Below, piece after piece: positions 1,460 to 62,943 of a DNA stretch of 64,000 nt. How positions within the stretch are numbered: position 1 is the stretch's first letter; each line of letters opens with the position of its first letter. A program made the position numbers and the translations under genes. The notes beneath the pieces were generated by a model. It was not told the DNA's origin. It did not search any database and saw only the letters and a program-made list of their open reading frames with translations. This DNA comes from Harriotta raleighana (lineage: Eukaryota), in the NCBI GenBank assembly GCA_050575255.1, contig JBNZDD010013699.1, forward strand, positions 5,970,625 through 6,034,624, in the 5' to 3' direction.

Positions 1460-2163
1460 TGGAAAAAAAAGTGATCTTTGTAACTTAATATAATGCTGGG
1501 ATGACACTTTCGTTAAGTATTTAAAACAGTTACAATTTTAGTGGTGTCTAGTTATTTTCATCTCTTCATGGCTAATCTCTACTTAAACTATGATAAGAAA
1601 TTCTGCGGAAATAACTGAAGTCCTGAAATCCTGAAATGGCGTGAGGAGAAAAATATAGAAACAAAATGAAGAGATTGTTCTTTAATATTAATAATGCGTT
1701 ATAAGTTTAATAGAAATTGCAGTTAAAATGCTTGCAGATAAATTGCATGTTGCTGTATTTTCTTGGTGTTTAGAAAGGTATTCAAGACAAGGAAACATGT
1801 TGTGGTCTTTGTAATATAATATGGTGCTGGGATGACACTTCTTGTTTGATGTAAAATTTGAAATTTTTTGAAAGGTTGTAACATGTTTAGGAATGTAGTT
1901 GGGTTTCTGTTAATTCAGTAAAGGATTCTGTAAAGATGCACACACAAAGCTCCATTACATCAGAAGGATGGTCAGTATTGAAATGATTTTCAAATTTACA
2001 TTACACGAACTCCGTCTTGATTAAAATAAATATAAGTATGTATTTAGAACAGCTAAAAATTTTTAGTGATGTTTATCTATTTTCATCCCTTCACTTGAAT
2101 CATACAAAAACAACTATATTCCACTCCACCTAACCTCATGACTTAACCTCTTTTTAAACTCAT

Positions 2164-23989: not shown

Positions 23990-26900
23990 AACACAGCTGG
24001 GTAGCTGAGAACCATGGTATGCCCAGTGTGTGTCATGTAAGAACTCCAGGATGCCATTTGTAACCTGGACAATCAGATATGCATGAAGTGCCTCTGGCTG
24101 CTCAAGCTTGAGCTCAAGATTTCTGAGATTGAAGAGAGACTGGAGTCACTACATCATATATGGGAGGCTGAGGATTTCATGGACCAAACATTTCAGGAGG
24201 TGATCACCCCACAGCCACTGAGGCTTCAGAGGGAAAGTGATTGGGTGACAAACCAGCATGCTAGGAAGAAGGGATGGGCAGTGCAGAAATCCCCCTAAAA
24301 TGTGGCACTCACAAACCAGTACTAAATACTGATGAGGGTATTGATTCCTTGGGTGAGAGGAGCAAAATGCAAGTGGATTCACAGGGGGACATAGGGAAGA
24401 GTGTCAATGCGATTGCCATTGGGGATACAACAGTCAAAGGTATAGACAGGCTTTTCTGCAATCGAAGACGTGGGTGTCAATGGTATGTCCTGGTGCCAGG
24501 GTTGAATACATCACAGAACTGGTGCATACAATTCTACAGGGAAAAGGGGAACATTCAGAAGTGGTTGTCCATGTTGGGATCTATGAGGGTGGAAAAAAGA
24601 CTGAGATACTGCAGGGAGAGTATCAGAAGCTGGGGAGAAAGCTAAATAGTAGAACCTCGAAGGTGATGATTTCTGGATTACTACTTCCAGTGCTTTGTGC
24701 AAGTGAGTTTCAAAATGGCAGGATCAAGCACATGAATGCATGGTGGAGAAATGGTGCAGAAAGGAGGGCTTCAGGATCATTGGGACCACTTCTGGGACAA
24801 GTGGGACCAGTACAAGATGGATGGGTTATACCTAAACAGGGCTGGGACTAATGTCCTTGCAGGGAGATTATCTAGTCTTTGCAAAGGGATAAGGTGCTAG
24901 AGGGCCTAAAAACATTCTTAGGCCCTTTAGCACTTAAACTACTCTATCTGGTTAGAGTTTAATGAACAAAAAATGAGCTGTTACTCTGTTAGGGGTATAC
25001 TACGAACCACCAAAAAGTGGGAAGGAGATAAATGAGCAGATCTGCAAGCAGATTTCAGAAAAATGCAAAGTCAATAGAGTAGTGATAATGGGGGACTTCA
25101 ATTATCCCAACATAGACTGGCAAAATAACGGCGTAAAGGGCAAGGAGGGAGAAAGGATTCCTGAAATGTGTTCAGGACAACTTTCTTGATCAGTATGTTT
25201 CCAGCCCAACGAGGAAGGAAATAGTGCTGGATCTAGTTCTGGGAACGAAGTAGGGCAAGTGGTAGGTTTCAGTAGGAGAGCATCTGGGCAATAGTGATCA
25301 CAACATTATTAGATTCAGAGTACTTTATGGAAAGGGCCAAGGAACAATCAAAGGATACTCAACCAGAGGAGGGTTAATTTCAGTGAGTTAAAAAGGGACC
25401 TAACCAAGGTGGACTGGAAAGAAACATTGGCAGATAAAACAGCAATGGGAAGTCCTCAAGGAGGAGATAGTTTGGGGACAGGACAAATACATTCCCATAA
25501 AGGGAAAACGTAGCTCATCCGAACCTCCCTGGGACTAAAACATAAAAAGGAGGCTTCTGACAAATGTCAGAAGACAACCATATAGAATATAGCAAATACA
25601 GAGGAGAACTGAAAAAGGAAATAAAAGAGGCAAAGATTATACAAGAAAAGATTAGCGGGTAACATTAAAGGGAACCCTAAGATATTTTATAAGCATATCA
25701 AGAATAAAAGGTTAGTCAAAGGTAGAGAGGGGCCAATTAGGGACCCAAGGTGGAAATTTTATTGCGGTGGCAGAGGGCATGGCTGATGTACTGATTGAGT
25801 ACTTCTCATGTGTCTTCACAAAAGAAGAGGATGCAGCCTCAGAATTGGAGGAGAGGGTAGAGGAATTGGATAGGATAATTATAAACAGAGAGGAAGTACT
25901 AAAAAGGTTGACAGTATTCAAGGTAGATAAGTCACCTGGTCTGGACGGGATGCATCCTGGGTTACTAAGGAAAGTACGGGTGCAAATAGAAGAGGCTCTG
26001 GCCCCAACCTTTCAATCTTCCTTGGACACGGAGGTAGTGCCAGAGGACTGGAAGGTTACTTAAGTTGCTGATGTACAAAAAGGGGCAGAAAGACAAACCT
26101 GGGAACTACAGGCCAATCAGTATAACATCAGTAGTGGGGGAAACTTCAAGAGACTATAATCTGGGACAAATTAAATCTTCACTTAGAAAAATATAGGTTA
26201 ATAAAAGACAGCCAACACAGATTTATTAAAGACAAATCTTGTCTATCAAACCTGATAGTGGTTTTTGATGAGGTAATGGAGATGGTGGATGAAGGTATAA
26301 CAACAACAACTTCAATTTATATAGCGCCTTCCACGTCAGACGGCATCTCAGAGCGCTAGGTAGAGCAGTTGATGTAGTTTATAAGGACTTTCAAAAGGCA
26401 TTTGACAAAGTGCGGCATAAAAGACTTCTAAGGAAAATAGAAGCCACGGTATTAAAGATACAGTGGCAGCATGGATCCAGAATTGGCTGGGAGACAGAAA
26501 GCAGAGAGTTGTGGTGAACGGCTACTTTTCTGACTGGAGGGAAGTGTACAGTGGTGGCCCAAAGGGATCGGTATTGGGACCACTGCTCTTTTTTGTACGT
26601 ATAAATGATCTGGACTTGGATATAGGGAGTACAATTTCCAAGTTTGCAGAAGATACAAAGTTAGGAAAAGTAGTAAGTAGTGAGGAGGATAGTAACAGAC
26701 TACAAGAGGACATAGACAGAATGGTAAAATGGGCAGACATATGGCAGATGAAGTTTAATGTGGAGAAATGCGAGGTAATGCCTTGTGGGAGGAAGAATGA
26801 GGAGAGGCAATATAGTCTAGATAGTACAAACTTAAGCAAATCTTTGAAGGTGGCAGGTCAGGTAGATAAGACTTTTTTTTAAAAAAGCATACAGGATACT

Positions 26901-38653: not shown

Positions 38654-38975
38654 CTGTAGATAACAGGACTGAATGTGATTTATTTGTATCAACTCCGATT
38701 CTGCCAGTCTTTTTGAAAATAGTAATGCTACATCTGTCATAGGTATTGATATGTTGCTTTAACAAAAGAGAATGAGATCTTGGGTTGAGAACAATAAATA
38801 AATTAGCAAGTGTAATAATAATGAGTGCGAGTGACTTCATACGTTGCATTATTATTAAACCCCAAAATGTAATCACGGACAGAGGTGTGATCAGGGTCAG
38901 AAAGAGTGGAGATGGTATATTTTCAAATGGCAATAATAGTTTGAACAATTTTTGTGTGGTCAATATGTATTCCAG

Positions 38976-39762
38976 GGAAGAAGAAAAGAAGTTTGGAATT
39001 GATCCCTCTTACAGCGCGGATGGTAATGGCACACCTCATCAACCATCTGGGGCACTATCCACTAAGTGGAGGACCAGCCATACTTTACAGCCTCATCAGT
39101 GAGAATCATGACAATCCCTACGTCGAGTCATCCGATCTGTCGGCTGAGGTCTTTAAAAGTCCAAATTTGCAACTCTTTGTGCTTAATGATAGCACTCTAA
39201 TTTCCTACCTTCAGATTCCTGTAGAGGAAGAAAGGACTTTAAGCAGTGAACCAAAGGTTCCTGCCTCAGATGTGAGGGTAATTGTGCGTGATATCTCTGG
39301 AAAGTATTCTTGGGATGGTCAGATTTTGTATGGACCTTTTGACAATCAGATGTCTTGTTGTAAAGACTGTAAAACATCAGTATCGTCAAACATGAATAAG
39401 ATGCCTGGCAACCAATTTGATACACAGAGATCAGACTCTGGTCTTTTTCAAGATGATGATGATCTCGATAAGCTACTTGAAGACTTAGGTAACAGCAGTC
39501 CAGAATGCCTACCCCATCCACAGCTAAATCTAAGTGAGCCCGCTCCACCACCACTCGGTATGAGCTATGAACAAGAAAGAGACATCATTGATTCTATACT
39601 CAGGCAGAACAATCAGGAGGAGGAGTACATTCGCAGATGGAACAGAGATCCAAGTATGAGTGTGGCCTGCCAGAAAGAATCTGTTCATCATGAACCTCAG
39701 GCACTGTTCTACTACTGCAAATTGCTTCTTAACGATATGGGAATGAATTCCTGGGACCGAAG
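38976..39762 (+). CDS. RALGAPA2: RALGAPA2 large exon ([20 protein letters not shown]...MNSWDR)
   Basis: ttccag / AG|gtaagc, 787 nt, phase 1-2; corresponds to ORF 38954..39766. Confidence 0.97.
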
Positions 39763-42700
39763 GTAAGCAAGCTATTTATAAATCAGTCTCAAAGTCAAAT
39801 TGGATTATCAGCAGGGTTATAGAAGTTTTGTTTAGAATAATTTTATCAAAATTACAGTGATTTGCACTGCGTTTGCCTGCAAAAACAGTCATTAATCCTA
39901 CAAGACCTGTGAAGCACTTCACAAGGCTAACATCCTTTATAGGATTGAGGTTTGTAGAAATTAATTTAGTTTACATAGAAGTTTGCCAGTTAATGTCCAT
40001 CTCACTAACATATGTCATTTAGATGTCATATATTAGCTCCATGGAGCTATCTACTGCCTTAGCTTATGAAACTGTAGAAAATTAGAAAATCCCTTACTGA
40101 ACATGAAACAGTTTTCTATCCAGAAATGAACGAGTGTATGTCCATGTATTGTTAGGAGTATATGTTTCAGTGAGCCTTTTATTCTTTTAATTTGTCTATT
40201 TCTCCATTCATGATGGTCAAAAGGAGTGCGCTGAGTAAACAAAAATTTGTTCTGGTCTATAAAATATAGTTCAGAAATTGGGAGTAAGATATATTGGCAA
40301 ATGGAGCGAACCTCTTTGTAAGATTGGCCATAATTCTTATCTGCCAGTATCTTTAACACCTTCGCAATCAGTGTTCAAATCCGCTCACTTCCTGACACCT
40401 CCCTACCTCTCAACCGCTGAGCCCCCAAACACAGGAACACTCTTTCATTCCCTCTGCCTTACCCCCTCTCAGCCCCCTTTTCAAGTGCCGCCTGAAAACC
40501 TTTCTCTTCGACCATGCTTTATGCCTACCGCCCCTCATTGTGAGTTCAAAGTTCAACCATGGAGTTTGAACCCAGAAGCTGATTGAGAGGTGAGAATCTT
40601 ATTAACCAAGCCAGACAAAATAACAGCAGAAGGATAGCAATAGAATAATATCTAACCAGGCTTCCATTATAAGAGATGAGGAATAGAGCGAGACTGGTTT
40701 AGGTATATCTGATTTCCCACATATTTTATTTTTGGAAATCTGCTTTGCTCGGTTAAAAATTCACTGGTATGTTTGATATCATCATAAGAATTCCACCCAT
40801 TAAATCAGTATACAAATATTTACATCGTGTATTTGTTGGATGTACAAATTTACAAGCATCTGTTGTTAGACTATTGTTGCCCCTGCCCAATCAGTTGTGA
40901 AAGTATACTACCTGACAAACTGAGTATGTAATTGGTTGTGCTGTAATATACGATTCTTCTGATTCAAAAACATTTTTTTTCTTTGTGTTTTGGCCAACAA
41001 TCCACCAGGTAAATTGGACTTCCACTCCATGGCCTAGAGCACAAATTCACTGCTATTTTTGCTTATCTTTCAGCGCTGGGGGACGTCCTCCCGACGTGAA
41101 AGGTGCTCTATAAATGTGATTTTGTTAGTGTTCTTGCCCATCATATAGATTAGATTCTGATCAGCAAATCTATTTCCAACCTTTTATAACATGGTCAGGT
41201 AACTGATTTCATGTGTCATTCACTCAGTTTATAATGGTTTGTTGCATTTCATAAACTTTTGTGCTAAAATAAGGGTAGATTTTTCAAAGAATACAGCACA
41301 TTCAAAACTGCTTTTACAATTGACCAATATTTCTGTGAAAGTCCCTATTAATCCAATACCAATGCTCTGGTGAATATTATTGCCCCCCTTTTGTACCGAT
41401 CTTAGTGCCATCTATAGCAACGGTCTCTGGCTCAGCTCCAATATTCAAGCCAGGATTCAATATCAATACTGAGACCATGCCAGAATAAGTGGTGTTGACT
41501 GCTGAGTGCTTTTTTCAAAACCAGCACCCTTCTTGCAGCAATAAGCAAATATCCCTCCCCTCAGGATATTTTGAAGGATTCCTCAAATGTTCTGTTACAT
41601 TCTCTATTGTTGAGGGCTTATCTCCAGATAGAGTTGGATTCTAGGTGGATGTTTACAGTATTTGGAATATTCTAGTTGTTAACTCTTCTAACAATCCGAA
41701 CAAGCATTCCCACAAGCAAACTGTTTTTTTCCTACCGCTATCTTGGAACGTTTGCTTGTGCATAACGACAACAACACCACCAAAATTACATTTGTATTGC
41801 GTCTTTCACGTCACGAGGACATCCCAAGGCGCTGGACAGATACTGCTTCTGACCAGAAGCGAGACTTGAAGGAAGCCGGGGGGGGGCAGGGTGGAGCAAT
41901 AACAGACTTGCTAATGAATGCCTGAGGAGTTAATTACCCTGTTCCAATAGTTTTGACTAGATTTTATGTGATCACGTACCACAAAACCATATGCACTTTG
42001 AACAAAATATTACATTGGAGCAGAAGAACAACAAAAGTACATTTGTATAGTACAGTATGTACATTTGTTTACCTTTCACGTCAGGAGGACGTCCCAAGTT
42101 GCTAAAGTTAATAATTAAAGGTAGATAACAAATTATTTACATACAAAATTAATAATGCTCTCAATGCAATATATACTATCAAATGAAAAATACTTTACAA
42201 TTCATGTACATATTCGTGCAGCTCAAACCTTTTAACACTACAACTGGGAACAACGGTTTTTTAAAAACATATGAAAGGTCCACCTGATTTTCTCTTCTTA
42301 TATTTTGTTCTAATGGATCAATTCTTTGTCTCATTGACCTATTTGAGTTTATCAATCTAGTTTGATGCTGCCTGCTGCATGGCAATCAGAAAACTTGACG
42401 ATGGCTAGAGTGATCTCTTTATATAACAATCAGATTTCAATATCACAAAGGTTTTCTCTTTGAAGTCAGATCTTTTGATTTTTAATGAGATTTCCAAGTC
42501 TAGTGCATTTTGCCACATCCATTTTGGCTTGTGTGAATTGTTTAGTTCCTTTGCATAATTAATGAATCAATGTTAATAGCTTAATTCAGACAATCCACTC
42601 AATGCTAATTGGATGTTCAATTCATATGTTATCAAAATTTCTGAGGCTCAGCAAGTCTTTGATCATATACAACAAAGAAACAAAAAGGATCTAACTGATT

Positions 42701-42993
42701 GATGTACCTACAATATTCCTGCTTCGTCACAGATTCTATAGCAGCTCCTGCAACTAAGGAACACTTTCAGGTGTTGCTGACCTTCATGATTCTGTACTGA
42801 TGGCACATAAGGGACTAGAAAAGAGCAGTAACAGTGGGTTTCTATCTGGTAACCAGTTGTCCTGATATCCAAATAGACTTCCTTATTTCCTGAGAAAAAG
42901 GTTATGAATGGTTCATCAGTCAAGAACTTGCTCAGGCAAAGGCCTCTAAGGATGCAATACCCCTTTGCTGCTGATTGCATGAATTTAGTCTAC

Positions 42994-43133
42994 GATCGAT
43001 CTGCCGAAGGGTCGTGGACCCGAAACGTTGACTCACTTTCCTTTCTCCATGGATGCTGCCTGACCTGCTGAGTTTTCCCAGCAACTTCTGTTTTTGTTCT
43101 AAATTTCCAGCATCTGTGGTATTTTGTGTTTTG
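42994..43133 (+). mobile_element. Penelope-like element terminal fragment with hammerhead ribozyme remnant
   Basis: Perfect 14-bp TSD tgaatttagtctac (42980-42993, 43134-43147); ctgccga-agggtc-gtg-gaccc-gaaacgtt core followed by gatgctgcctgacctgctgag. Confidence 0.8.
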
Positions 43134-43283
43134 TGAATTTAGTCTACTTGGGCATGCTGCTTCCAGTGTCATTGTTTTTATATCAGTCCACTGGCTGCAT
43201 TATGAATGGCTTTCAGGTGTCTGCTAAATGTAATTGGAAATAAAATTCTATAATGAAATTAAGAGTGCACTTACCAATTATTT

Positions 43284-43619
43284 GGAGTCCTGTAGCTCAG
43301 TAGTTAGAGTGCACACTTTGGAAGCGAGAGATCCAGGTTTGATTCCCAGCAGAGCGAAATGTTAAGCAAGTTTCCTTATTCCACATGTGTCTGTTTACCT
43401 ACCAGTAAGTGGTACACTGCTTTTTAATCAATTGATAGATCGCTTTTTGGTGGAGGAATAATTTCTTTTAAAAAATTGGTCATTCAATCCATGACTGTTT
43501 GTGGGACTCTATGATTCATTTACCTAGCAATGGCTGCCACGTTTCACCCACAAAATATACACTTATTCAGTTTACTGTATATTCTGTGAAGAGCTATATC
43601 AAATGCAAGGATTATTATA
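43284..43619 (+). mobile_element. tRNA-derived SINE
   Basis: ggagtcctgtagctcagtagttagag head to atcaaatgcaaggattatt tail. Confidence 0.87.
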
Positions 43620-47320: not shown

Positions 47321-49306
47321 TTATTCTTGCTTACTGGTTCTGAGGAGAGCACTGAGATGTTATGTTGAACATAATGACTGAAAATATGGCAGAAGTTGAT
47401 CAAATTAGCAATGCATATCACACTCCTTGAAGGGTGCTATATAAATGCAAGTTGTTGTTGTACTGATCAATAGTAGTACTGAACATTTAGCTATGTATTT
47501 AAAATGGCAATATCCAATTGCAAAATTTATAGAATCATAGAAGGACACTCGTATTGATATAAAAGCCAGGCTCCATACTCAAACTATGTGCTGCACTTTG
47601 AACAGTCAGTTTGCCAAAACAATCACAAATAGTATCAATGTTGGTCAAACTGATAGAAAAGCGGAACAACGGTGGAAAGTCAGTTTGGTTTCACCAAAAT
47701 ACATTGCTTTTGGATGAAGAATCCTTGACAAGGGGACAAAATATTTGAATTTTTAACAGAACAAAATAGGATGAGACATTGGAGGAATATCTATACTCGG
47801 AGGGTTTCATCTTGAATTAATGCATCTGATGTCTGCCAGCATGCCAGAAGCAGTAAAAAAAAGAACCATCAATGACATGTTATACATCGTGGCAGCTTGT
47901 TTCAGATTAAACTGAATTGTTTCCAAAGAGACTTTTTTCTCGACAAGGCATTTGCGAAGCCTTTGATGTTGGTGTGCAAAGGTTTGATAATTTTCCAAGT
48001 TTTTCTTCAGTAAATATTATATGAATATTTCAATAGAACCCTTTATGAAAGATAAAACAGTGTTTTCATCTTTTCTGTGCTTAGCTTGGGTGTTAAGAAT
48101 CTATGTGCATATTATTTACATACCTTGAATATTGGTCTTTAAAGAATAAGTATCAGTGTGCAGTTTTTCAGAATTAAAGTGTGATGTGAAATTGATTGTC
48201 ATTCATTAACAACATTAAATAAATAGGTTCCAACTGAAATTATTGTAGGAATATATTGCAGTAAAATTATTGTTTAATAGTTTGATACAATGAAGTTTAC
48301 AATTTTACAAGGTTTTTCAATATTTTGTAGAATAGATTATGAATAGAAAAAAAATCAAAAAATTAAATAAAGTTAACTACTGCTGTCCTAAAATTGTTCA
48401 CCACTGTCATTTTGTGTAGATTGCTAACATATTTGCAAAATTCTAATTATATTTCAGTTTTTGCTTTCTTAATATATATACTCCATTCAATAATAGGATC
48501 CTTCCAATTTGCAGTATATAGAAATATATTTACTGTACAGAAGAAGGCCAGTCGGTCCATCGTTTTGGCACCAGCTTCCACCTCTCACCTTTTTACCCCC
48601 CATCATGCATGCTGTTATCACCAGCAGCTTGATGCATCTTCATACCTCACTTGTCGTATCCCCTAGCTTCCTATAAAAACTGCAAACAATCAAGAAGCCT
48701 GCACTCTACCAAACCAGTCCTCTGCCAGACCAGGGTCCCCAAACTCATCACCCCATCCTCACTGGCTCCCTATTCTACAGAGAGTTAAATTTGAGATTCT
48801 TGTGCTCTCAAGCCCTCTCAAAGCTCAGTTGAAGACCTATCTCTTTGATTGGAACGTCCTCCCGACATGAAAGGCGCTCTATAAATGTAATTATATTGTT
48901 GTAATTGTATTTTGATGTTGCTGTACTTTTGACCACCTTTCCCACACTTGCTTCCACCCACACTCCTAGTTATTTGTGTGAACCACTTTGAGACTTTTCG
49001 CTCACAAAATATAGTCATTTTACTTTACAGTATATTCCATGAAGCGCTTTGTAATATCTAGAAGATGTGAAATGCATTGTATCAAATGCAAGGATTATTA
49101 TTATTTTATTTAAAAGTAAATGGTTTTGTTGCTGTTGTTTCATTGAAAGATTTAGGCACCAATGTCCATTGTGAAGTATGAATTCTTAATAAATTATTTC
49201 TGTATTAACATTTGAATAGGTATTACTGTATATGGAACCAGGTGATTGATATGTGTTGTATTAATATCCCTTTACCCATTTTAAACAATGTACCTTTTGC
49301 TTGAAG

Positions 49307-49378
49307 GAACAGTTTTCATCTTCTGAAGAAAAATTCTAAGCTATTAAGGGAATTAAAAAATTTGGATTCCAGGCAATG
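49307..49378 (+). CDS. RALGAPA2: RALGAPA2 exon ([24 protein letters not shown])
   Basis: ttgaag acceptor (in-frame alternative cag 6 nt downstream) / TG|gtgagt, 72 nt, phase 2-2. Confidence 0.92.
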
Positions 49379-50356
49379 GTGAGTAGGTTGAATTTTGTAA
49401 TATTTTCTTTCATATCTGCCAAAGATGTTCCTTGTACAGTATTTGGGTTTAGGCTTAATTTATTCAGTATATTGTGACATTACTTCGTATTCATCTATCT
49501 ATAGGAGATTGAGAATGATGCCCATTCATTTTTTTAAATGAAATCTCCTAAATTAAAGTTAGTCATACTGATACATGTGCCACTATTAGTATTCATTAGC
49601 CAACAGATGTTTGTCCCAACAAAGTATAACTAGCATTGTAGGAAAATGATAATTTGCTGTAAAAGCTAATTTGTACAATACTATGAGCAAACTCTAAATC
49701 AGGTAAATGACTAGAAATGTGTTTCAAAACAAATGTAGCTGACAGGCACAAGAGATGCAGATTTTCGCAAACTTTTGTGTATTGTGCAAGCACATAGTTT
49801 TACATTGGTATTCTCTTCAGACAATACCATGTATGTTTTCAACTAATATGATTTGCATCTCTTACAATAGCACCCTTTCCATTTAAACCTGATGTTTTCA
49901 TTAAAAATATCAATCAAACATTTTTTAAAAGTACACAATATTGTCCATGGAGCAAACATTGAGTGTTCCACTTAATTTCTATCTGCTTAGCCATACACAA
50001 CAGTGCAGCATCATTTAATTAAACTACTGTTATTTTTGTCTTTTAAAAATAAAAATAAGTGAAAATTATTTTTCTTTGAAGTGGCTAACTGGGATGTCAC
50101 TTTTAAAATAAATACTGTACATGTAACTCAACTTGTCTGTGGACAAAAGTAATATTTTATCAGGATTAAGTATCATAAATGTACATAATATATAATATGA
50201 GTTCACACATATGTTCATAAAAATGTGCCATCATTAGATTCAATTTCTCATATCTTGATTTTCAATCCCGATATATAATCTATTATGACAATTTTTTTAT
50301 TTCCTTGTTCAAAATAATATTAATAATGAGATAAATTTATTCATATTATTTTTCAG

Positions 50357-60174: not shown

Positions 60175-62943
60175 GTAAGTTCAATTTTATTGCGCTTTAT
60201 TGAAAGTTGCATTGTATTGTTGTAACACGTGACTTCCTGAGCTATTCTGTGAAAAATTCTTCCTAAATTTCAAATAAAACGTTTCAATTTTTGATAAAAG
60301 AACTCTCTTTATGCACCACATATCCTCAGTACTGTAAAAAATGTTTCAAAAGAATCATCTTTTTAGTAAATATCTTCCCTCATCCAAATATATTGAGATC
60401 AAATAAATAGGATGGAGCATTCATCTTATTTCTGTCTGGACATGATTGGTTCAGATTATCTTGTACATTTGTCTATGTAACTGTATCTAGACTTCAAAGT
60501 CAAGTGTTTGGTACCTATAGATCTGATGAGGTGTTACAACAAATGAAAGCTTTTTATAATCCATCCTTTGGAATACTGCATAACAACACACCAACTATCC
60601 ATGTATTCTCATATTTTTGGAATTGGGCTAAATGTTTAAATTGTATGTAATTTGATGGTGTGCTGAGAATTGGAAAAACACATGAGTTTCACGTTCTGGA
60701 GGACATCTTTAAACTCATTGCACTGCTGTGCAACAGAGCTGGGTGTGGAAGCCAAACCAGGTGGCAAGGGGAAACATAACCAAAAGAGATGCATCTTGAG
60801 ACAGACTTTGAATGAGGTGAGGGAGAAAATCCGAAGGATAAGAGAGAGAGAAATAAAGACACAGTTAAGTACACGATTAGAGAAAGTCCCAAGCAGAGAG
60901 AAAATTGCAGAGATCCATCCACAATCGCACAAGATTGTTTTGCTGTTTTATTCCCGCGGCACAATGGGCAGATGGTTTAATATTTTTTCCACTGAATGTC
61001 GATCAGTGTACTTCATTTTTTATAAAAATCAGTCTGACACTCAATATTTTGTTTTGTACTCCTAAACTATAATGCTAACCAGGCCTCATTCCTATCTTAA
61101 AGGATCTAAATGCTTCTTCTTGTGTACACATCTACTTTGCCTCCATTTTTGCTTTTGCTAACCATATTTAAATAATTTATAAAACTACCAGGCCTTGAGA
61201 TTTGCAGAAGCCCTCTTACAACACCTTTCCACATTGAAACATTGCAATTTTGACTTTGCCCAAATTCCTATTTGAGACTATTTTCTAACCAGGATTCTAT
61301 TTCCATTCTATACTTCTTTAACCATTAATAGCTGATTAATTGTTTTGGAAAATCTTAAGCATTCAACATGGACTACACAGTTCTATTGTTCAGCAGTTTA
61401 TTTAAACACGACTTCCACTTCCTAAATAATGATGGCTGTCATTCAATGAGCTGTACTTTCCATCAGATCCTTTTAATATAATTAAGTTTATTTCTATATG
61501 ATAAACTGATTAGTTTCCATGATGTGCCTTGACTCTTTTTAAAATAATGGCACTATGTCTCTGGAAACTGGGAATTCTTTTATGCGGCATTCATAAATAT
61601 TAATTTGTTTGTCAATGAAGAGCAAGTTCTGTTTTCAAAATCTGCATCAACTCATCTAACAGATGGCCAGCTACAACTGATGCTTTTTAGTTTGTTGTGA
61701 CTTGGCACTGTGTAAATTCTACCAAATCTTTTGGAAGGTCCAGGAATTGAGGTTCCAGCAGCTTGCACAATCCAGAATGCCTGAAGCAGCAATACATTTT
61801 GCATTTGAGTCCAAAAAACCTGCCGAGTTGGCTCCTAAATGTCCCTCATTCATTCATGCATGAAAAACTGGGGGAGACATATTGCAAAAGACACAGTTTG
61901 CCCAAAATCTCCTTCTCTGACTCCAAGTTTCCAATGACATTCGTGTTTATTTTGGCATCAAAAAAGTGTTGGGCAAGCATATGCAAAAATCTAAACTGTG
62001 AAACATTGAGTTGTTTGTGATCCAGATCAAAATCACTAATTAACCTGAGAGAGAACAATGGGACCAATATTGGACTGAGGCAGTTGAAGGCATGTTGCTT
62101 TGCCATTATTTCATCTGTATGGAATTTGCTATAGTAGGTAAGCACCTGCAAAACCATAATTATTTGGTGTGTTGAAGATGTCATGACCTCCATTAGTGAA
62201 TGTGAATTACAGTATTTATATCAATAAGAAGACTCATCGGAATTGGCAAATGTTGAGTTCAAATCCAGACCCATTGTCCAATAATTATTGCTTTGTTTTC
62301 ATATCTGATACAAAGAATGGATCCAAGGTTTTGAAGACATTGGTTCATTTCCCATCATGAATATTTATGTCAGTTCCACAGTACAGGCCCAGCAAAGTGC
62401 TATACCAAAAGCTGAGCAACAGAAACTTTCAAAATATAGCTACTCATTTTGTCCTCTTATCTTCAATGATCTGGCCTTTCAATAGAATAAGAATTATTTT
62501 ATTCTACCTTTTGCTTCTTGTTTGAGAAAAACTTGGTTTGAACATCCTTGATTTGGTGAAGGGTTTCCTTGTGTATTAGACACCCTGCTGATCTGAAAAA
62601 AACTTTGTTTCTTAAACAAGTTCAATGATCTGGCCTCAATCATCTTTCCGTGGAGAGTCCCAACTGTTGGCTGCCCTCCAATGTGTACAGGAAAAACTTA
62701 TTGGAGGCTGTTCTCAAGCTATCTCACTGCCTTGGTACATCTAATCATCAAGGTATAAGTTATCATAGGTTTTGTTTTACATTTAGCTTAATTGTTGAAT
62801 TCTAAAGTATAGTAGCGAATACAGGACAAAAAAGATTAATGCAAAAAGATGGTATTTTACAAAGTAACAGGTATTTGATTAGAGAATTCGTCTGTGCCTC
62901 CTTCGAGGTTGATATACAATATCCTCCTCCCCATCTTTGTCTT

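What the first reader, a model, noticed from the sequence alone, without database searches (positions are those of the whole stretch)
42980..43147. 140-bp Penelope-like insertion built around a hammerhead ribozyme, with perfect 14-bp TSD
Seen: exact direct repeat tgaatttagtctac flanks a 140-bp unit whose first 35 nt fold as a minimal hammerhead: CUGCCGA (consensus CUGANGA, one substitution), helix II GGGUC-gug-GACCC, then GAAAC-GUU with the palindromic mini helix III. Established: Penelope-like elements carry minimal type I hammerheads that can act as dimers, and make TSDs of about this length. Inference: this is either a heavily truncated Penelope or a tiny non-coding ribozyme-bearing retroelement (retrozyme-like). 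It is sense to the RALGAPA2 pre-mRNA, so the core mutation and weak helix I may reflect selection against cleaving the host transcript.
Basis: partly seen in the sequence, partly recalled or inferred. Interest (0 to 1): 0.72.

Follow-up and report, generated by a model that had tools for sequence, protein, structure and literature searches.

The report
Solo Penelope tip with decayed hammerhead
This 140-base insert is a stub of an ordinary Penelope-type jumping gene sitting in an intron of RALGAPA2, with a broken copy of the small self-cutting RNA motif such elements carry; the one notable point is that many such stubs start at the same spot, likely the first base of the element's RNA.

Summary
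Observation holds: exact 14-bp duplication (42980-93/43134-47) around a 140-bp unit with a minimal-hammerhead motif, sense in a RALGAPA2 intron. The unit is the terminal repeat (hammerhead plus about 100-nt tail) of an autonomous RT + GIY-YIG Penelope-like element, probably Neptune type. The same sequence ends ORF-bearing copies and, in near-full-length copies, runs into the ORF. It is not a retrozyme: 0 of 97 copies tandem, 0 of 97 start at the cleavage site. Truncation is not random either: 40 of 97 copies start within 10 nt of the first hammerhead base (stop rate about 12-20 times that on either side), 30 nt behind a TATA-like box at an initiator-like site, often with a preceding G (12 of 18). 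Best reading: run-off cDNA from an internal priming site to the capped RNA start (inferred). The A6C core change looks like neutral decay (core 6.6% vs non-core 7.1% divergence; 35 of 59 copies broken); helix I is missing because the copy starts inside it. Selection on the host transcript is unsupported; strand bias not properly testable. The scan reported the same fixed-start stubs in other genomes.

The parts
42980..42993 (+). 5' target-site duplication (14 bp)
   Evidence: family TSDs 8-15 bp in 18 of 31 comparable copies
42994..42999 (+). 6 non-family bases at the 5' junction (untemplated, or remnant of a tiny inverted piece); they stand where the family has the first bases of hammerhead helix I
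   Evidence: junction extras of 0-19 nt occur in siblings
43000..43033 (+). Minimal type I hammerhead motif of the Penelope terminal repeat; A6>C at 43004; helix II 43009-43021; predicted cleavage site 43029|43030; helix I 3' strand 43030-43033 has no partner in this copy
   Evidence: architecture as in PMC4209133
43047..43119 (+). Long stem (arms 43047-58 and 43108-19) downstream of the hammerhead; candidate RT-binding fold (inferred)
43053..43133 (+). First 27 codons of a 37-codon upstream ORF that in near-full-length copies stops 2 nt before the main ATG
   Evidence: L175, L177, L184
43098..43133 (+). Optional 35-nt 'tail' between the family's two 3' ends (about -35 and 0), matching the two RT start sites described for Penelope elements
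   Evidence: 15 of 25 ORF-bearing copies end at -44..-27, 10 at -1/0; 32 of 35 inverted arms end at -45..-26; PMC11167929
43134..43147 (+). 3' target-site duplication (14 bp)
38945..39763 (+). Reading frame holding the upstream RALGAPA2 exon (host context)
49305..49380 (+). Next RALGAPA2 exon, approximate (host context)

Best explanation
The insert is a solo copy of the terminal repeat of an autonomous Penelope-like retrotransposon, likely made when the element's reverse transcriptase primed inside the repeat at the 5' end of its own RNA and ran off the RNA's probably capped first base after about 135 nt. Shown: the unit is both the 3' end of ORF-bearing copies and the sequence leading into the ORF; the 3' ends are fixed at two sites 35 nt apart; 5' ends pile up at the first base of hammerhead helix I; TSDs are 8-15 bp. 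From the literature: internal priming at two sites bounding the tail, extension of both target strands, and no need for ribozyme cleavage (PMC11167929). Inferred: the pile-up is the transcription start (TTAAAAA about 30 nt upstream, CCAGTTC fitting a recalled initiator consensus, excess G before the first A as from copying a cap). After insertion the copy decayed neutrally (7 changes in 134 nt, one of them in the core) and is predicted not to cleave. Confidence about 0.95 for Penelope stub, 0.85 for neutral decay, 0.6 for run-off at the RNA start.
For: Family size: 842 exact matches of the 25-nt 3' end, 1710 of a hammerhead-start pattern. 26 of 30 loci found with an ORF fragment end in the unit. 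L164: 2.75-kb element with an inverted unit at its 5' end. RT motifs are visible and homologues carry PF00078, best named hits in rays and sharks; GIY-YIG PF01541 E 2e-4, just under its cut-off. The unit runs into 5'UTR and ORF in L175, L177, L183, L184, L187. 5' ends: 40 of 97 at -140..-131; in non-inverted copies the stop rate is 0.051 per nt at -140..-128, against 0.0026 downstream and 0.0044 upstream; only 2 of 35 inverted arms pass -140. G before the first A in 12 of 18 non-inverted short starts not preceded by C (p 1.5e-4 at an expected 0.24), against 1 of 52 long copies; in 5 of 8 G-class loci with a readable TSD the G is not in the target (by eye, loci partly picked for G). L183, L185, L189, L199: an ORF fragment joined straight onto the same start, as after a template jump from an RNA end. 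Core 6.6% vs non-core 7.1% non-CpG divergence; core intact in 24 of 59.
Against: No RNA 5'-end data: only assembled contigs from four probable RNA runs, possibly of a related species. 5' ends scatter over about 10 nt and 22 of 40 short starts keep the upstream C, so the start is not one base. The G excess could also come from a jump onto the element's own TTTG end or from microhomology; inverted copies show no G excess (2 of 7). An RT stall at the structured hammerhead would give a pile-up nearby. Two T variants, both carried by this copy, are commoner in short than in long copies (18/44 vs 4/40, p 4e-4; 20/44 vs 3/26, p 4e-3), which a single-source model does not predict; the long set is biased towards the L013 subfamily. 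The sample is the first 100 of 842 listed matches and requires an exact 3' 25-mer.
Confidence: 0.62

Rival explanations
1. Same origin, but the 5' pile-up is an RT stall or repair hotspot at the folded hammerhead in the 3' repeat of full-length RNA, so the stubs are ordinary truncations with a structural hotspot.
For: The pile-up coincides with the hammerhead edge; a small cluster of ends lies at -116..-105, at the 3' side of helix II; starts are heterogeneous.
Against: A stall should fall at the 3' foot of the structure, not after it has been copied; the hammerhead region folds no better than shuffles (z +0.45); G excess and TATA/initiator-like spacing at the pile-up; long copies read through it.
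Confidence: 0.2
2. A SINE-like or retrozyme-like mini-element lineage: short copies are transcribed on their own and re-mobilised by the Penelope protein.
For: The unit holds the start site, hammerhead and tail; the D. virilis Penelope promoter is internal (PMC2377424, passages); two variants are enriched in short copies; non-autonomous PLE derivatives are described (bioRxiv 10.64898/2026.07.22.740005).
Against: No position has a fixed difference: the majority base is the same in short and long copies, and both variants occur in long copies; 0 of 97 tandem; no ends at the cleavage site; the TATA-like box lies outside the unit.
Confidence: 0.12
3. The core change and missing helix I were selected to spare the RALGAPA2 pre-mRNA from cleavage.
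For: The copy is sense and intronic; retrozymes are depleted from introns in Xenopus.
Against: 35 of 59 copies have a broken core at the background rate; intact cores are not depleted (24/59 against 27-36% expected); helix I is lost at the insertion junction; a single minimal hammerhead showed no cleavage in vitro. A crude flank-skew proxy showed no orientation bias (mean +0.010, p 0.13, n 95) and no difference between intact and broken copies (p 0.65), but has low power.
Confidence: 0.05
4. The 5' edge is a splice acceptor (CCCCAG|UU) and stubs derive from spliced RNA.
For: A pyrimidine tract and CAG precede the hammerhead; the D. virilis intron ends at helix I.
Against: In 9 of 18 copies with a TSD it abuts or overlaps the unit within 1 nt, leaving no room for an upstream exon; no shared upstream exon sequence was noticed by eye.
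Confidence: 0.04

Closest known systems
Pseudo-LTR and 30-40-bp tail of EN+ Penelope-like elements, Neptune/Nematis type (PMC8557442, PMC3846280)
   Same: RT followed by GIY-YIG, a CHRRRCNTC linker fitting CX2-5CxxC, hammerhead near the 3' end, optional tail, inverted 5' arms, TATA- and initiator-like motifs in the repeat, TSDs of similar size.
   Different: Solo repeats were described there as few, without TSD and ascribed to recombination or deletion; here they are the commonest product, carry TSDs and share a start point.
Minimal hammerheads of metazoan PLEs (Cervera and De la Pena 2014, PMC4209133)
   Same: CUGANGA, bulged base before helix II, G10.1-C11.1, GAAA, palindromic 15.2-16.2 without loop III, 4-bp helix I in the family, dispersed single and opposite-strand copies.
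   Different: This copy has A6>C and lacks the helix I 5' strand; helix II is 5 bp.
Poseidon PAc of Anolis (Frangieh et al. 2024, PMC11167929)
   Same: Two 3' ends bounding a tail about 100-140 nt behind the hammerhead; uncleaved RNA as template.
   Different: The PAc ORF starts in helix II, here a uORF and the main ATG lie downstream; a fixed 5' run-off product is not mentioned in the parts read.
Non-LTR retrozymes (bioRxiv 10.64898/2026.07.22.740005; PMC6155905)
   Same: Short, non-coding, type I hammerhead, related to PLE terminal repeats.
   Different: Defined by tandem units each with a hammerhead; here 0 of 97 are tandem and the unit is colinear with an autonomous element.

Membership tests
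EN+ Penelope-like element (source family) | [quoted passage not shown] | tested here: met
   RT homologues with PF00078; RVT_1 weak, E 0.003-0.17 in 3 of 6 fragments; GIY-YIG E 2e-4 to 0.2 in 3 of 6 fragments, below cut-off; order read in L164, L163; all copies seen are broken
EN+ Penelope-like element (source family) | Terminal repeat present at the 3' end and again ahead of the ORF | tested here: met
   (L184/L205 partial tandem)
EN+ Penelope-like element (source family) | Optional 30-40-bp tail and inverted 5' arms | tested here: met
   two 3' ends; 35 of 97 with an inverted arm
Neptune clade | CX2-5CxxC linker between RT and EN | tested here: met
   shared with Nematis (PMC8557442)
Neptune clade | RT phylogeny groups with Neptune references | not tested
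   no labelled reference set on hand
Minimal type I hammerhead (family level) | Intact CUGANGA / GAAA / UH core with helices I and II | tested here: met
   majority sequence of 59 copies
Minimal type I hammerhead (this copy) | Intact core and helix I | tested here: not met
   A6>C; helix I 5' strand absent
Minimal type I hammerhead | Helix II covariation | tested here: inconclusive
   100 of 151 listed variant matches were one-sided changes of the same family by eye; no second family to compare
Minimal type I hammerhead | Self-cleavage | not testable with these tools
   needs an assay
Non-LTR retrozyme | Head-to-tail tandem units, each with a hammerhead | tested here: not met
   0 of 97 with a unit directly upstream; rare tandems elsewhere not excluded (two close pairs)
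Non-LTR retrozyme | Unit ends set by self-cleavage | tested here: not met
   0 of 97 direct and 1 of 35 inverted ends at -104..-102
Non-LTR retrozyme | Circular RNA | not testable with these tools
   no raw RNA reads
Independent non-autonomous (SINE-like) family | Diagnostic changes absent from the autonomous partner | tested here: inconclusive
   no fixed difference; two frequency shifts

The most novel reading that the evidence does not exclude
The roughly 137-nt unit (RNA start, hammerhead, RT-binding tail) is a complete minimal Penelope cassette: first made as run-off cDNA, some solo copies are transcribed from an internal promoter and re-copied, forming a hammerhead-headed SINE-like lineage marked by the variants enriched in short copies, this copy included.
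Probability: 0.12. Interest if true: 0.6.

Novelty: new member of a known kind. Interest (0 to 1): 0.3.

Why it matters
The locus itself is a dead repeat of a known class. The family pattern is a useful fossil record: if the fixed 5' edge is the capped RNA start, internal priming (shown in vitro in 2024) explains why most insertions are tiny stubs, two-armed inversions and ORF-to-start jumps, it maps the promoter without RNA data, and it defines a candidate minimal RNA for Penelope-based insertion. I did not find this run-off reading in six literature searches, which cover open-access papers only; Repbase/Dfam were not available.

Tried and rejected
Rfam: no hammerhead hit on this copy or on an intact one, uninformative. 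Folding does not single out the hammerhead. RNA runs: no RNA holder on record; four probable RNA runs held as contigs contain family-like pieces but cannot show starts, strand or splicing, and do not cover this locus's near flanks. Pfam and PDB gave no RT match for the longest open stretch; the Atlas gave no answer. The covariation search returned only decayed copies of the same family. The flank T/A skew is too weak as a stand-in for gene direction (per-locus sd 0.063 against a host-gene signal of 0.02). The idea that the 6 extra bases are a tiny inverted arm could not be tested (too short). Sequence look-up in earlier findings: nothing. Rows dropped: three duplicate loci (L116, L125, L129) from the 100; L077's start was reset by hand and it was left out of the core and TSD counts; L153 dropped as duplicate; L245-L264 left out of the G count because they were picked by that base. 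No other copy of the family in the window or the next 30 kb.

Full report
Observation. The 14-nt repeat is exact and flanks 140 bases. Against the family, homology begins at 43000; the six bases before it are foreign, so the 5' strand of helix I is missing and the copy differs from the family majority at 7 of 134 positions, one of them core A6. Predicted folds of the copy pair the 5' junction with helix II or with the cleavage site and are no better than shuffles. Rfam misses the motif here and in an intact copy. The host is RALGAPA2 on the plus strand, with exons at about 38945-39763 and about 49305 (found with recalled motifs), so the insert is sense and intronic.

What it belongs to. The genome is 1.10 Gb; the unit had 730 candidates, its 3' 25-mer 842 exact matches, a hammerhead-start pattern 1710. 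Walking upstream from longer copies gave a retroelement ORF: L013 carries its last 1.07 kb, L163 and L164 about 2.6-2.75 kb. RT motifs are visible by eye (recalled motifs), homologues carry PF00078 with best named hits in rays and sharks, and a GIY-YIG domain follows (below cut-off) behind a CX4CX2C linker typical of Neptune/Nematis elements (PMC8557442, passages). 26 of 30 loci found with an ORF fragment end in the unit. In five near-full-length copies the unit continues into a 5' region, with a 37-codon uORF and the main ATG readable in three. The unit is therefore the Penelope pseudo-LTR core, present at both ends of the element's transcript.

Ends of the copies. I took the first 100 of the 842 matches, which are selected on the 3' end only; 97 are independent. 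Numbering from the 3' end, the first base of helix I is -136. Direct segments start at -140..-131 in 40 of 97, beyond -145 in 15, inside -127 in 36. In non-inverted copies the per-base stop rate is 0.051 at -140..-128 (30 of 45), 0.0026 downstream (16 of 61) and 0.0044 upstream (4 of 15). 35 of 97 have an inverted arm; 32 of these end at -45..-26 and only 2 pass -140. ORF-bearing copies end at about -34 (15 of 25) or 0 (10 of 25). None of 97 is in tandem and none starts at the cleavage site. TSD-like repeats occur in 18 of 31 non-inverted copies at the pile-up (1.75% of 400 shuffled pairs), 8-15 bp, with 0-19 junction bases, so this locus's 14 bp and 6 bases are typical.

Mechanism. PMC11167929 (abstract, main text and start of methods read, parts 1-2 of 4) shows that a Penelope protein primes inside its RNA at two sites bounding the tail, extends both target strands, uses uncleaved RNA, and that its hammerhead cuts only with the protein present. 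That accounts for the two 3' ends and the two-armed inserts. Because the same tail lies about 137 nt from the start of the transcript, priming there would give a short cDNA that runs off the RNA's 5' end. Three things point to -136 being that end: a TTAAAAA box about 30 nt upstream and an initiator-like CCAGTTC in long copies (consensus recalled; similar motifs are reported in PMC3846280, passages); a G before the first A in 12 of 18 non-inverted short starts not preceded by C, against 1 of 52 long copies (by-eye tally 14 of 22 in the partly overlapping list), not target-derived in 5 of 8 readable cases; and ORF fragments joined directly onto this base. These steps are inferred; no RNA-end data were available. 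Against: starts spread over 10 nt, inverted copies show no G excess (2 of 7), and a stall or a jump onto the element's TTTG end could mimic part of the signal.

Selection idea. The family core is intact, but in copies it decays like the rest: 6.6% against 7.1% at non-CpG positions, intact in 24 of 59, no fewer than the 27-36% expected. A single minimal hammerhead gave no detectable cleavage in PMC4209133 (abstract, results and discussion read, parts 1-2 of 4). The sense/antisense test needs gene models; a skew proxy was null and weak. The core change is best read as chance.

Retrozyme or mini-element. The retrozyme preprint (parts 1-3 of 5 read) defines them by tandem hammerhead units and derives them from PLE repeats; the defining tandem and cleavage-site ends are absent here. 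A partly independent short lineage remains possible: two variants carried by this copy are enriched in short copies, though they also occur in long ones, and the D. virilis promoter is internal (PMC2377424, passages). PMC6155905 was seen as passages only.

Novelty. Solo Penelope repeats with minimal hammerheads are known. The fixed start read as run-off at the RNA start was not found in six searches of open-access papers. My reading was noted before the look-up that showed the same pattern reported by this scan in other genomes; those notes are unchecked and are not counted as support. Verdict: real, ordinary locus; modest mechanistic interest at family level.

Noticed in passing
window 43286-43560: tRNA-headed repeat (Rfam tRNA 30.6 bits) with many matches among fetched loci: a SINE-like neighbour 140 bp downstream.
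   Followed up: partly
window 62462-62477 and 62621-62636: Exact 16-bp direct repeat spaced 159 around sequence with no match in the fetched loci; could be a small duplication or an unrelated insertion.
   Followed up: partly
window 1567-1689 and 2506-2629: Inverted repeat, 95% over 124 nt, about 820 nt apart; possible MITE-like element.
   Followed up: no
L183, L185, L189, L199, L195: Rearranged copies in which the 5' part of the ORF is joined directly to the terminal unit, four of them at or next to its first base; suggests template jumps after run-off.
   Followed up: partly
L175, L177, L184 (unit and following 40 nt): A 37-codon upstream ORF begins inside the unit and stops 2 nt before the main ATG; two pyrimidine-tract AG sites lie in the same stretch. 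Possible translational control or intron.
   Followed up: no
L025/L026, L027/L028, L115/L116, L128/L129, L152/L153, L180/L181: Nearby identical or near-identical duplicated stretches of 1-6 kb, likely assembly duplicates or recent local duplications.
   Followed up: no
window 25716-26882: Fragments of a CR1-like LINE reverse transcriptase by eye; family name recalled, not searched.
   Followed up: no
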